Source of the DNA: Pyrodictiaceae archaeon
GTDB taxonomy: Archaea; Thermoproteota; Thermoprotei_A; Sulfolobales; Pyrodictiaceae
Reading direction: 5' to 3'
Length of the DNA: 64,000 nucleotides
NCBI GenBank assembly: GCA_027036135.1
Contig: JALVSY010000016.1
Location: 224,001 to 288,000 of the forward strand
The position numbers were made by a program, and so were the translations under genes. Position 1 is the first letter of the stretch, and each line of letters opens with the position of its first letter. This document shows, piece by piece, positions 4,369-15,666 of this stretch. Below the pieces are notes generated by a model that saw nothing but the letters and a program-made list of their open reading frames with translations, was not told where the DNA came from and ran no database searches.

Positions 4369-5244
4369 CTACTGTCTTCCATAGAGGCTAGCTACTGCAT
4401 AAATAAGGAGCATAGATACACCAACAGCCCCAGAAGGTGATACAGGAACCACCATACTAATAAGCATACCCAAGGAGCCAGCCGTCATGGAGGCAACTAG
4501 CGAGACAAACAGGGCCTCTCTAGAACTCTTACCATAACTAGCTCCCAGGGCACCAGGTAAGAGAATCAATATATGCTCAAGAACAAAACCAACAACCTTA
4601 ATGAGAGAGACAACAACGGCTCCGAGAAGAGTAAAGAACACCAAGTCATAGAGCCAAATAGGCGCGCCAGTAAGAAGCGCTGAGTCACGGTCAACACCGA
4701 GGTATATCTGTGCATCAAATGTCAGTACTACACCAACAATAGTGATAATAGCCACTATGGAGGCTATAACGAGTTCGCGAAACGTTACTAGGAGGGGGTC
4801 TCCAAATACCACAGACATTATGTCGAAAGACACCGGTAAGCTAGTCTTAATATAGTATGCTGCGAGCACGCTAAAAGAGCTGGCAAACGCGACCAGGATC
4901 GAGGTAGCTAGATCCGGGTCCACCCCCTTAAATATGAGATAACCAGCAAAATAGATAACGATCACACCCATAAGGATAGATAATGCATAGATGGCATAGA
5001 TTGATGACAAGCCTATGCCAAGCCAATACGCGGTTATCACTGCGCTAAGAGCCGCGAATAGGGCTGAGTGAGGACTTGCACCTGCTAGGAAGTACAAGCG
5101 CCTAGCCGCTATGATTGAGCCAACTAAGCCAAAGAGAATGCTAGCAATAAGTAGTGCAAGAGCTGCGGCTAGCTCAACTCGGATAGCAAAGGAGTAAACC
5201 ATGAGCAAGTCAAATATTATCAGAGAGATAGCGAGCTTTCTCAA
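4369..5244 (-). CDS. Zn/Mn ABC transporter permease (ZnuB-like)
   Basis: RRLYFLAGASPHSAL, VFGDPL, KVVGFVL motifs; multiple TM helices. Confidence 0.9.
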   Translation of the reverse strand: MRKLAISLIIFDLLMVYSFAIRVELAAALALLIASILFGLVGSIIAARRLYFLAGASPHSALFAALSAVITAYWLGIGLSSIYAIYALSILMGVIVIYFAGYLIFKGVDPDLATSILVAFASSFSVLAAYYIKTSLPVSFDIMSVVFGDPLLVTFRELVIASIVAIITIVGVVLTFDAQIYLGVDRDSALLTGAPIWLYDLVFFTLLGAVVVSLIKVVGFVLEHILILLPGALGASYGKSSREALFVSLVASMTAGSLGMLISMVVPVSPSGAVGVSMLLIYAVASLYGRQ

Positions 5245-14348: not shown

Positions 14349-14454
14349 GCCTTATCCCACCCTCTCCTGCCAATAAGAGATGCTAAGCTTCCTGCAAATT
14401 AATTCGCTACCCTCTGTGCTCCTAAGGATCTGGTGACACACCATACCTCGGCAC

Positions 14455-15051
14455 GTGCTAGTGGTATTCCATAGACCTGGTAACCCCTCTGAGGCATCAA
14501 AGCTGCTAGCAGAGCTAAGAAGGCTTGTAGAGAGCCATTGCGAGTGCTCATTAATTTTGAAGCAATTAGACGAGGTTACTGTGGATGATTGCAGGGATAC
14601 GCACGAACACATACTCTTGTTACCTACAAGAGGCGGACACTGGCTAGAACTTATAGAGAGAGACTGCAAGCCAGAAATACTGCCCCCGTACCTACTCGCG
14701 CTTAGCATCACAAGGCAACTAGCAAGAATCAATGCTAAGAAGCCCCTACTAGTAGCGCTAAGAGCCAGGAGAGCAAAACAGCTCCAGGACAGGGATCTGC
14801 AAGTACTGACTAGGATAATGAGGCTGCACGGATACAACCCCGAAATAACAATGCTACAAAAAACAACAGATACTATACCTACTATACCAGATGCAGAAGC
14901 TGACTCCGTAGTTCCCCTCGCAATCCTTCCCGGCAAACTAGTAGATAACGCGGCCAACTACGCAAAGCAGAAAACAATACCAAGCCTAGGCCCAATACTG
15001 AGCTACGCCACCATAGACATAGCCTCGTGGATAACTAGTATAGCAGAGTAG
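14455..15051 (+). CDS. Hypothetical protein, possibly a degenerate CbiX/SirB chelatase fold
   Basis: LVVFH, LLP..GGH and VVPLAILPG resemble CbiX repeats; divergent from hemB. Confidence 0.4.
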   Translation: MLVVFHRPGNPSEASKLLAELRRLVESHCECSLILKQLDEVTVDDCRDTHEHILLLPTRGGHWLELIERDCKPEILPPYLLALSITRQLARINAKKPLLVALRARRAKQLQDRDLQVLTRIMRLHGYNPEITMLQKTTDTIPTIPDAEADSVVPLAILPGKLVDNAANYAKQKTIPSLGPILSYATIDIASWITSIAE

Positions 15052-15128
15052 CCAAAACCATAAACCCCCTTACACACTTAAGAGAAACCACAAGGAGGAA
15101 CCTAGGAGGCACCAAGGCGCCGCCGAAG

Positions 15129-15453
15129 AGGGCTCCGCGCGGGTAGGGCCGGGGGCTCGCCCTCCCCCACGCCCGAAGCTGGGCGCAACGCGGGGGCCAG
15201 TAACCCGTGTTGGCGGTGTTGGCTCCCACAGCGGCCCTGGCTGACCAATGACCCCCGTCCCGCGGGGCCGGCGGCGGCGGAGCCCCCTCCGGAGGGAGGG
15301 AGGCTACCGCCCTTACCGGGGGAACCAGGCCAGGCCCGGAAGGGAGCAACCTAACCCCGGACGCCCGGCGTTCGCGGGGAAGCGGGGTGAGGCAACAGCC
15401 AGGATAACCGCTGTGGGAGCCAACACCGCCAACACGGGGGCCGCGCGGGCCCT
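15129..15453 (+). ncRNA. ffs: Signal recognition particle (7S) RNA
   Basis: GC-rich, ~325 nt; helix 8 motif CCAGGCCCGGAAGGGAGCAACC; helix 6 CCCTCC-GGAG-GGAGGG; terminal helix pairing; long helix 5. Confidence 0.95.
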
Positions 15454-15504
15454 CGGTATAGGCGCGGTTCTCCTAATTACCCCCTTGCTGCTAGTTATCC
15501 GTAA

Positions 15505-15593
15505 GTGGCCCGGGTATCGCCCGGTGACGGCGCCGCGTAACGGCGCTGGGATGATGCCGGGTATCCGTTCCAGGCCCCTCTTAGCGGGGCACA
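15505..15593 (+). ncRNA. H/ACA-like pseudouridylation guide sRNA candidate
   Basis: Hairpin with a K-turn-like TGA/GATGA element; pocket strands CCCGGGTATC and ATCCG match 16S CGGAU-UA-GAUACCCGGG; ACA at 15591-15593. Confidence 0.65.
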
Positions 15594-15666
15594 TTTCTTT
15601 CTCGTAGTTGTCTTGTTTTGGCGAGAAGAGGGTAGTGGCGGAGATAATCTGTTCCCTATGCACGTG

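What the first reader, a model, noticed from the sequence alone, without database searches (positions are those of the whole stretch)
15103..15475. SRP RNA enclosed in a canonical bulge-helix-bulge: candidate spliced, circular SRP RNA
Seen: sequences flanking the SRP RNA pair into a long stem. In order: TAGGAG/CTCCTA, GCGCC(15117-21)/GGCGC(15461-65), a 3-nt bulge ATA(15458-60), a 4-bp helix GCCG(15122-25)/CGGT(15454-57), a 3-nt bulge AAG(15126-28), then AGGGC/GCCCT. Both bulges lie 3' of the 4-bp helix. Known: this is the substrate geometry of the archaeal tRNA splicing endonuclease, and BHB-dependent SRP RNA circularisation is described for the permuted Thermoproteus gene. Inference: this non-permuted SRP RNA is excised like an intron (~15128-15459) and may be circularised, with the flanks ligated.
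Basis: partly seen in the sequence, partly recalled or inferred. Interest (0 to 1): 0.75.

Follow-up and report, generated by a model that had tools for sequence, protein, structure and literature searches.

The report
Splice-motif-flanked, probably circular SRP RNA
The signal-recognition-particle RNA gene of this extreme heat-loving archaeon is framed by the cut-site shape that the tRNA-splicing enzymes recognise, so the RNA is most likely cut out and closed into a ring, as transcript data from a close relative show.

Summary
An archaeal SRP RNA (Rfam RF01857, 15136-15447, 169 bits) is extended by a 6-bp helix. Outside that lies a canonical bulge-helix-bulge (BHB): a 4-bp helix 15122-25/15454-57, 3-nt bulges 15126-28 and 15458-60, and an outer helix 15117-21/15461-65. 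A further 10 bp of leader-trailer pairing follows.

The motif is conserved in the family, which neighbouring record titles name Pyrodictiaceae. A strict BHB sits at the same place in 10 of 15 evaluable loci. All four central pairs and the outer helix show compensatory changes. Controls were low: swapped flanks 7 of 210, shuffled flanks 3 of 5000.

The genome encodes two splicing-endonuclease paralogs and RtcB. The cut rule reproduces the canonical intron site in 5 of its tRNAs.

RNA-seq contigs of a relative give the key evidence (two runs, one study). They best fit genome G031, whose gene is colinear and carries the same BHB. Each is a closed 363-nt cyclic contig, as a 333-nt circle gives at an assumed word length of 31. 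The joint lies exactly at the predicted cut sites.

No RNA data exist for the window's own organism. Flank ligation and the circular-to-linear ratio are untested.

Verdict: a new, non-permuted variant of the Thermoproteus BHB-circularised SRP RNA.

The parts
15060..15069 (+). TATA-like promoter element (ATAAACCCCC). Inferred; it implies a transcription start near 15089.
   Evidence: By eye, the 15 family loci of alignment A1 show an A/T-rich TATA-like element about 55-75 nt upstream of the Rfam 5' end. In other families of the order the element lies about 26 nt upstream, as in L002. Neither the promoter nor the start site was measured.
15089..15127 (+). Leader, the 5' flank removed at the first cut. 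Its start is inferred.
   Evidence: The 3' end is fixed by the BHB cut rule. The 5' end is inferred from the spacing to the TATA-like element.
15103..15113 (+). 5' strand of the outermost leader-trailer pairing. TAGGAGG 15103-09 pairs with 15469-75; ACC 15111-13 pairs with 15466-68.
   Evidence: Present in the MFE and centroid folds. Not conserved in the same-genus relative G004, whose outer helix is 6 bp only.
15117..15121 (+). Outer BHB helix h, 5' strand (GCGCC).
   Evidence: Its sequence is free but its pairing is kept in relatives, for example AGAACC/GGTTCT in G004.
15122..15125 (+). Central 4-bp helix H, 5' strand (GCCG).
   Evidence: All four pairs are paired in 13 of 13 family sequences, with 2-4 pair types each.
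15126..15128 (+). Bulge 1 (AAG). Predicted cut between 15127 and 15128.
   Evidence: The cut rule was checked on 5 tRNA introns of this genome. The relative's circular junction begins at the equivalent of 15128.
15129..15134 (+). Inner helix h', 5' strand (AGGGCT). It extends SRP helix 1 and stays in the ring.
15136..15447 (+). SRP RNA, colinear and not permuted.
   Evidence: Rfam RF01857, 169.2 bits, model 1-317. It is the only copy in the genome.
15128..15459 (+). Predicted excised and circularised RNA, 332 nt.
   Evidence: BHB cut rule. An equivalent 333-nt circle appears in RNA-seq contigs of a relative. In a circular fold the junction sits in a 5-nt loop GGUAU closed by C15454-G15128.
15448..15453 (+). 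Inner helix h', 3' strand (GGCCCT).
15454..15457 (+). Central helix H, 3' strand (CGGT).
15458..15460 (+). Bulge 2 (ATA). Predicted cut between 15459 and 15460.
15461..15475 (+). Trailer strand of outer helix h (GGCGC 15461-65) and of the outermost pairing (GGT 15466-68, TCTCCTA 15469-75).

Best explanation
The SRP RNA gene is transcribed with a leader of about 39 nt and a trailer. These pair with each other and extend SRP helix 1 into a canonical hBHBh' motif.

The crenarchaeal splicing endonuclease cuts between the second and third base of each 3-nt bulge, at 15127|15128 and 15459|15460. This genome has two PF01974 paralogs, one predicted catalytic and one structural. RtcB then joins the two ends of the excised 332-nt piece. 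The result is a covalently closed SRP RNA whose Alu-end helix is capped by a 5-nt loop.

The ring is most likely the stable, working form. It has no free ends to fray or to be degraded at the very high growth temperatures of this family.

Shown: the motif, its conservation and covariation, the enzymes' genes, the cut rule on this genome's tRNA introns, and a closed circular SRP RNA contig joined at the homologous cut sites in a relative.

Inferred: cleavage and circularisation in this organism, the promoter and leader start, ligation of the flanks, and that the ring is the mature form.
For: 1. Anatomy. The coordinates are exact. The SRP RNA is full length and colinear. The MFE fold holds helices h' and h and the outer pairing, the centroid part of helix H; z = -9.97.

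2. Family conservation. The SRP RNA was found in 18 of 29 family genomes. A strict BHB coaxial with the SRP ends (h>=3, h'>=5) occurs in 10 of 15 loci with both flanks. G040 adds one more, read by eye across two contigs. Relaxed forms with h of 1-2 bp occur in G018, G017 and G039.

3. Covariation, in a BHB-anchored register. H1-H4 are paired in 13 of 13 sequences with 4, 2, 4 and 3 pair types. h1-h3 are paired in 13, 12 and 11 of 13, with 3-4 pair types. In all, 140 of 143 cells are paired, against 83-85 when the 3' partner is slid by one column.

4. Control that keeps relatedness. Giving each locus another family member's 3' flank yields a BHB in 7 of 210 combinations, against 10 of 15 with the locus's own flank.

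5. Specificity. Other families of the order gave a strict coaxial BHB in 7 of 93 loci, mostly in AT-rich sequence. This genome's RNase P RNA has none.

6. Enzymes. Two PF01974 hits (110.8 and 45.2 bits) and one RtcB (599 bits) are present.

7. Cut rule. For 5 intron-bearing tRNAs of this genome, the same scan and rule give the intron length that ARAGORN reports and place the intron at the canonical 37/38 site.

8. Transcripts. Runs X4 and X5 each hold one 363-nt contig (depth 365 and 466) with a joint from 15456, through the letters CAC, to 15128. The contig fits G031 (18 of 19 differences). G031's gene is colinear and single copy and carries the BHB. Its predicted ring is 333 nt.
Against: - No sequencing run holds the window's own organism; all 7 listed runs had a word share of 0.05. 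Nothing about its RNA is measured.
- The transcript evidence is two runs of one study. They are assembled contigs, not reads. Contigs cannot give the ratio of circular to linear RNA, and they can lose rare precursor branches.
- Contigs of the other study (X1, X2) do not reach the RNA ends.
- The match of the 363-nt contig length to a 333-nt ring rests on an assumed assembly word length of 31, which no call states.
- 5 of 15 family loci lack a strict motif, and G034 shows none that I could recognise.
- The covariation table uses registers chosen by the structure scan, so it leans towards the structure. The unguided MAFFT alignment A1 is off register by one column for part of the rows, so I did not run the formal pair count on it.
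- BHB geometry alone is common by chance genome-wide: 2525 hits.
Confidence: 0.78

Rival explanations
1. The BHB is a processing signal only. The endonuclease releases the SRP RNA and RtcB closes it for a time, as with archaeal pre-16S and pre-23S rRNA. The ring is then reopened or trimmed, and the working SRP RNA is linear.
For: The layout of leader-trailer stem, BHB and enclosed stable RNA is that of archaeal rRNA processing stems, where the ring is an intermediate. This rests on passages read in PMC7758197 and in the bioRxiv preprint 10.64898/2026.03.23.713588. Contigs cannot measure how much linear RNA is present.
Against: In both RNA-seq runs the SRP RNA of the relative assembled as one unbranched closed cycle at high depth. 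This is the expected result if junction-spanning molecules dominate. Only 8 + 12 extra bases lie between the cuts and the Rfam ends, and they form a stable capped helix. The Thermoproteus ring is the functional form (PMC4731332, section 3 part 2 read).
Confidence: 0.15
2. The leader-trailer helix is an ordinary extension of SRP helix 1, or a stem for another nuclease or for termination. Its BHB shape is coincidental, and the tRNA-splicing enzymes are not involved.
For: BHB geometry of this strength is frequent by chance in the genome: 2525 hits. This genome's RNase P RNA also has a short leader-trailer extension without bulges.
Against: The two 3-nt bulges and the exact 4-bp spacing are kept while the helices change sequence. 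The swapped-flank and shuffle controls are low: 7 of 210 and 3 of 5000. The relative's junction falls exactly on the two canonical cut positions.
Confidence: 0.04
3. The circular contig of the relative is made in the test tube or by the assembler, through ligation during library preparation or template switching. Linear SRP RNA would then end at the BHB cuts in vivo.
For: Only contigs were seen, never single reads. The library method is recorded only as paired-end cDNA RNA-Seq.
Against: The same closed 363-nt contig appears in two runs. From recalled biochemistry, not tested here, endonuclease products carry 5'-OH and 2',3'-cyclic phosphate ends, which common library ligases do not join. Even under this reading, cleavage at the BHB is confirmed.
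Confidence: 0.03

Closest known systems
Permuted, circular SRP RNA of Thermoproteus tenax and T. uzoniensis (Plagens et al. 2015, PMC4731332; passages and section 3 part 2 read)
   Same: A leader and a trailer of the SRP RNA precursor form a BHB. The tRNA splicing endonuclease cuts it, and RtcB is proposed to close the ring. The ring replaces free ends in a hyperthermophile.
   Different: [quoted passage not shown] Helix 1 is absent there, and circularisation is needed to restore function. Here the gene is colinear (Rfam model 1-317). The junction caps an extended helix 1 at the Alu end, and circularisation is not needed to restore the fold. The lineage also differs: Pyrodictiaceae by record titles. 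That paper proposes an ancestor 'with simple BHB introns', not a BHB around the whole gene.
BHB processing stems and circular pre-16S/pre-23S rRNA intermediates of Archaea (passages read in PMC7758197; preprint 10.64898/2026.03.23.713588; PMC3326292)
   Same: A long leader-trailer stem holds a BHB around a whole stable RNA. The tRNA-splicing enzymes excise and circularise it.
   Different: The rRNA rings are intermediates that are reopened. Here the enclosed RNA is the SRP RNA, and the ring is probably the end product.
Archaeal tRNA introns with hBHBh' motifs
   Same: Same geometry and same cut positions. This was tested on 5 tRNAs of this genome.
   Different: In tRNAs the excised piece is discarded and the ligated flanks are the product. 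Here the excised piece is the product.
Circular SRP/7S RNA species reported in Sulfolobus, Halobacterium/Haloferax and Thermococcales (passages read in PMC3326292; PMC12558985; the 2026 preprint)
   Same: Circular RNA molecules derived from the SRP RNA gene of archaea.
   Different: Those are described as segments or low-abundance forms. No BHB is assigned to them and their function is unknown. In my scan of the order's large-genome family f13, which I did not identify, 1 of 10 loci gave a weak AT-rich hit.

Membership tests
Archaeal SRP RNA (Rfam RF01857) | Covariance-model score above the curated cut-off over the full model | tested here: met
   169.2 bits against 96.5, model 1-317, 15136-15447. 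Single copy in the genome.
Canonical hBHBh' substrate of the archaeal tRNA splicing endonuclease | Central helix of exactly 4 bp | tested here: met
   15122-25 with 15454-57: three G-C pairs and one G-U. Paired in 13 of 13 relatives.
Canonical hBHBh' substrate of the archaeal tRNA splicing endonuclease | Two 3-nt bulges on opposite strands, each 3' of the central helix (two-fold symmetry) | tested here: met
   15126-28 and 15458-60. tRNA introns of this genome show the same layout.
Canonical hBHBh' substrate of the archaeal tRNA splicing endonuclease | Flanking helices h and h' on both sides | tested here: met
   h is 5 bp and h' is 6 bp, followed by the SRP terminal helix.
Canonical hBHBh' substrate of the archaeal tRNA splicing endonuclease | Cleavage by the endonuclease at the second/third bulge bond | not testable with these tools
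   Indirect only. The genes are present, and the relative's junction lies at exactly these bonds.
BHB-dependent circular SRP RNA (Thermoproteus type, PMC4731332) | Leader and trailer of the SRP RNA precursor form the BHB | tested here: met
BHB-dependent circular SRP RNA (Thermoproteus type, PMC4731332) | Circularisation junction seen in transcripts | tested here: inconclusive
   Seen in a relative: 2 runs of 1 study, contigs only. No run holds the window's own organism.
BHB-dependent circular SRP RNA (Thermoproteus type, PMC4731332) | Circularly permuted gene with the junction in helix 8 | tested here: not met
   The gene is colinear, model 1-317. The junction lies at the 5'/3' end of helix 1. 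No permuted pieces were found in 5 family genomes that lacked a full hit.
rRNA-type circular processing intermediate | The ring is reopened to give a linear mature RNA | not testable with these tools
   Contigs cannot show ends or proportions.

The most novel reading that the evidence does not exclude
In a whole family of the most heat-tolerant archaea (Pyrodictiaceae), and probably in a neighbouring family (f9), the universal SRP RNA is made as a covalently closed ring from an ordinary, colinear gene by the tRNA-splicing machinery. The ring is the working form. This would be the first non-permuted universal non-coding RNA matured in this way. It would also supply the missing evolutionary step for Thermoproteus: once the RNA is circularised anyway, permuting the gene costs nothing.
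Probability: 0.5. Interest if true: 0.8.

Novelty: new variant of a known kind. Interest (0 to 1): 0.72.

Why it matters
SRP RNA is one of the few RNAs shared by all cells, and it is taken to be linear except in two Thermoproteus species with a scrambled gene.

A conserved splice-site frame around a normal SRP RNA gene shows that the tRNA-splicing enzymes have a further regular client beyond tRNA and rRNA. A closed transcript in a relative supports this.

It suggests that end-less RNA is a standing adaptation near the upper temperature limit of life. It also gives a testable order of events for how permuted RNA genes can arise: circularisation first, permutation second.

On the practical side, covariance models and annotations that stop at 15136-15447 miss 20 nt of the mature RNA. 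Standard RNA-seq pipelines that discard back-joined reads will under-count it.

Tried and rejected
- Own-organism transcripts. The look-up of sequencing runs gave 7 runs, all with a word share of 0.05. None is the window's organism.
- Runs X1 and X2 (the other study). Their contigs cover only 15141/15180-15400 and say nothing about the ends.
- Permutation in family genomes without a full Rfam hit. G040 and G033 have the gene broken at contig ends. G014, G016 and G036 gave no match at all. There is no sign of permuted genes.
- Formal pair counting on the unguided MAFFT alignment A1. The flanks are off register by one column in part of the rows, because h' is 6 or 7 bp. I used a BHB-anchored table in a script instead and say so.
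- BHB around RNase P RNA of this genome: none.
- Wider survey. In families f26, f35 and f37, which I take to be Thermoproteales-like from genome sizes and hit patterns only, a general scan of 16 loci gave scattered, inconsistent hits. No SRP-end BHB was recognised. Rfam hits there are partial, so this is weak.
- Genome-wide BHB count as a rarity argument. Rejected, because 2525 hits show the shape alone is common.
- Downstream element 15476-15625. No Rfam family matched at E<=10 apart from two weak chance-level hits. The fold z-score is -0.56.
- Earlier findings of this scan by place: nothing.
- Literature. No paper in the searched library links a BHB to a non-permuted SRP RNA, or reports circular SRP RNA in Pyrodictium or Ignicoccus. 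Papers outside the library were not seen. These include the P. abyssi RNA-ligase circRNA study and the Berkemer BHB survey, both recalled only.

Full report
**What is in the sequence**

The stretch 15136-15447 (+) is a full-length, colinear archaeal SRP RNA (Rfam RF01857, 169.2 bits against a cut-off of 96.5, model 1-317). It is the only copy in the 2.2-Mb genome. Working outward from the SRP RNA:
- an inner helix h', 15129-34 with 15448-53;
- a 3-nt bulge AAG, 15126-28;
- a 4-bp helix GCCG/CGGT, 15122-25 with 15454-57;
- a 3-nt bulge ATA, 15458-60, on the other strand;
- an outer helix GCGCC/GGCGC, 15117-21 with 15461-65;
- after a small internal loop, ACC/GGT and TAGGAGG/TCTCCTA.

Each bulge lies 3' of the 4-bp helix on its own strand, which is the two-fold symmetric hBHBh' layout. 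The minimum-free-energy fold of 15095-15485 holds helices h' and h and the outer pairing. The central 4-bp helix appears only in part, and only in the centroid structure. The z-score is -9.97 and 0 of 100 shuffles fold as well.

**Is it more than chance?**

The shape alone is not. A genome-wide scan found 2525 motifs with h>=5 and h'>=5 enclosing 14-420 nt. Position and conservation are what count.
- With the SRP core kept and the flanks shuffled, a BHB coaxial with the SRP ends and as strong as the real one appeared in 3 of 5000 trials. Any strict coaxial BHB appeared in 205 of 5000.
- This genome's RNase P RNA has a short leader-trailer extension but no BHB.

**Relatives**

Record titles of the nearest hemB neighbours name Pyrodictiaceae, Hyperthermus, Pyrodictium and Pyrolobus. 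I therefore take family f1 to be Pyrodictiaceae.

The SRP RNA was found in 18 of 29 family genomes, 16 of them over the cut-off. Fifteen loci have both flanks; L020 is cut 14 nt after the gene.
- A strict BHB coaxial with the SRP ends (h>=3, h'>=5) is present in 10 of the 15. The central helix usually starts 13-14 nt before the Rfam 5' end and ends 8-9 nt after the 3' end.
- G040, whose gene is split over two contigs, adds one more, read by eye.
- G018, G017 and G039 keep the central helix, the bulges and h', but have only 1-2 bp of outer helix.
- G011 is imperfect, and in G034 I recognised none.

**Covariation**

The table below uses a BHB-anchored register, so it is fitted to the structure.

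| Pairs | Paired in | Pair types |
|---|---|---|
| Central helix H1, H2, H3, H4 | 13 of 13 each | 4, 2, 4, 3 |
| Outer helix h1, h2, h3 | 13, 12, 11 of 13 | 3, 3, 4 |

- The same-genus genome G004 has an entirely different outer helix, AGAACC/GGTTCT.
- Overall, 140 of 143 cells are paired. Only 83-85 are paired when the 3' partner is slid by one column.
- A control that keeps relatedness gave each locus the 3' flank of another family member. It produced a BHB in 7 of 210 combinations, against 10 of 15 with the locus's own flank.

**Outside the family**

In 93 loci of 10 other families of the order, strict coaxial hits occurred in 7, mostly weak and AT-rich. In those families a TATA-like box lies about 26 nt before the mature 5' end, as in L002. 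In the 15 f1 loci of alignment A1, by eye, it lies about 55-75 nt upstream, which leaves room for a leader.

Convincing motifs outside f1 are L017 and L070 (2 of 3 loci of family f9) and L110 (family f7).

In 16 loci of three families that I take to be Thermoproteales-like, no consistent motif at the SRP ends was recognised. Rfam hits there are partial, so this is weak.

**Enzymes and cut rule**

The genome encodes two splicing-endonuclease paralogs (PF01974, 110.8 and 45.2 bits). From recall, that is the heterotetramer pattern of Crenarchaeota. It also encodes RtcB (599 bits).

I checked the rule 'cut between the second and third bulge base' on this genome's own tRNAs. Eleven short-intron ARAGORN candidates were examined.
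- Five have a strict BHB whose predicted excision has exactly ARAGORN's intron length.
- All five start four positions after the first anticodon base, which is the canonical 37/38 site.
- One has boundaries identical to ARAGORN's.
- The other six had no matching strict motif.

Applied here, the rule gives cuts at 15127|15128 and 15459|15460 and a 332-nt excised piece.

**Transcript evidence**

No public run holds this organism. Seven runs from two studies hold 5% of the sampled words. I laid four of them.

RNA-seq runs X4 and X5 (one study, organism B) each hold a single 363-nt contig, at depth 365 and 466 and about 88-90% like the window. It 'goes back 329': the joint runs from 15456 to 15128 with the three letters CAC between. 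No cover exists outside 15128-15456.

Among 25 loci, the contig's 19 compared differences (those shown by both RNA-seq contigs X4 and X5) fit G031 (locus L025) best, at 18 of 19. G031's gene is single copy and colinear. It has the BHB with a central helix ending in C and a second bulge ACA. CAC is therefore the last central-helix base plus the first two bulge bases. The contig resumes at the third base of the first bulge. The joint lies exactly at both predicted cuts.

The predicted ring in G031 is 333 nt. A closed cycle printed with a word length of 31 gives 363. That word length is assumed from the 31-letter word index and is stated by no call.

Contigs of the other study do not reach the ends.

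Limits: one study, contigs rather than reads, a relative rather than this organism, and no measure of linear RNA.

**How it most likely works**

1. A TATA-like element at 15060-69 implies a transcription start near 15089 (inferred).
2. Leader and trailer pair, and the endonuclease cuts both bulges.
3. RtcB closes the 332-nt piece. In a circular fold the junction sits in a 5-nt loop closed by C15454-G15128, on top of a helix 1 extended by 6 bp.
4. The flanks may be ligated to each other, as in splicing. This was not tested.

I think the ring is the mature form (about 0.6-0.7 given circularisation). The relative's RNA assembled as an unbranched closed cycle, and the extra 20 nt form a stable cap. 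The rRNA-like alternative, a ring that serves only as an intermediate, cannot be excluded.

**Comparison with the known**

BHB-dependent circularisation of SRP RNA is described for T. tenax and T. uzoniensis (PMC4731332; passages and section 3 part 2 read). There the gene is permuted, the junction is in helix 8, helix 1 is lost, and circularisation restores function. The authors suggest an ancestor with 'simple BHB introns'.

Here the gene is colinear, the junction caps helix 1, and the lineage is different.

Circular 7S/SRP species are reported as segments or minor forms, without a BHB, in Sulfolobus, Halobacterium/Haloferax and Thermococcus. I read passages in PMC3326292, PMC12558985 and the 2026 preprint.

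Eight full-text searches found no paper describing a BHB around a non-permuted SRP RNA. Papers outside the library were not seen.

I did not test it.

**Verdict**

- Flank ligation and the state of the mature RNA in this organism remain open.
- This is a new variant of a known kind.

Noticed in passing
window 15507-15594 (+): A conserved RNA-like element of about 85 nt follows the SRP RNA on the same strand, 60-141 nt downstream. It is present in 8 of 16 family loci, in four genera. It has a covarying 7-bp hairpin with loop GCGUAAC, kink-turn-like GUGA / GAUGA boxes, a second small hairpin, and a CACA end before a T-rich run. It is single copy in the genome. It has no Rfam family, and its fold z-score is only -0.56. 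It may be an undescribed guide-type small RNA (H/ACA- or C/D-like).
   Followed up: partly
window 15474-15484 (+): TAATTACCCCC resembles the TATA-like element upstream of the SRP RNA (ATAAACCCCC, 15060-69). It lies about 25-30 nt before the downstream element. It overlaps the 3' strand of the outermost leader-trailer stem. It may be that element's own promoter. This is inference only.
   Followed up: no
genomes of family f26: In one genus (g87), 7 of 8 mostly complete genomes give only partial Rfam SRP hits (models about 99-273). In a sister genus (g105), 0 of 5 genomes at 99-100% completeness give any hit. This pattern is expected for divergent or permuted SRP RNA genes of the Thermoproteus kind.
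   Followed up: partly
G313:C44:3279-3591 and 4913-5230; G064 contigs C244 and C57: Two full-length SRP RNA genes occur in one genome. In G313 they lie 1.3 kb apart on the same strand.
   Followed up: no
G000 C30:291222-291330 (-) and C7:282279-282396 (+): ARAGORN labels two intron-bearing tRNAs 'Pyl (cta)' and 'Stop (tta)'. Both have clean BHB introns of 33 and 42 nt at the canonical site. The odd anticodon labels probably come from ARAGORN's intron placement, which is offset by 2 nt.
   Followed up: no
window 14352-15051: Two overlapping ORFs on opposite strands lie just upstream of the SRP promoter: 14455-15051 (+), 198 aa, and 14352-14957 (-), 201 aa. Neither has a Pfam match. At most one of them is likely to be real.
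   Followed up: no
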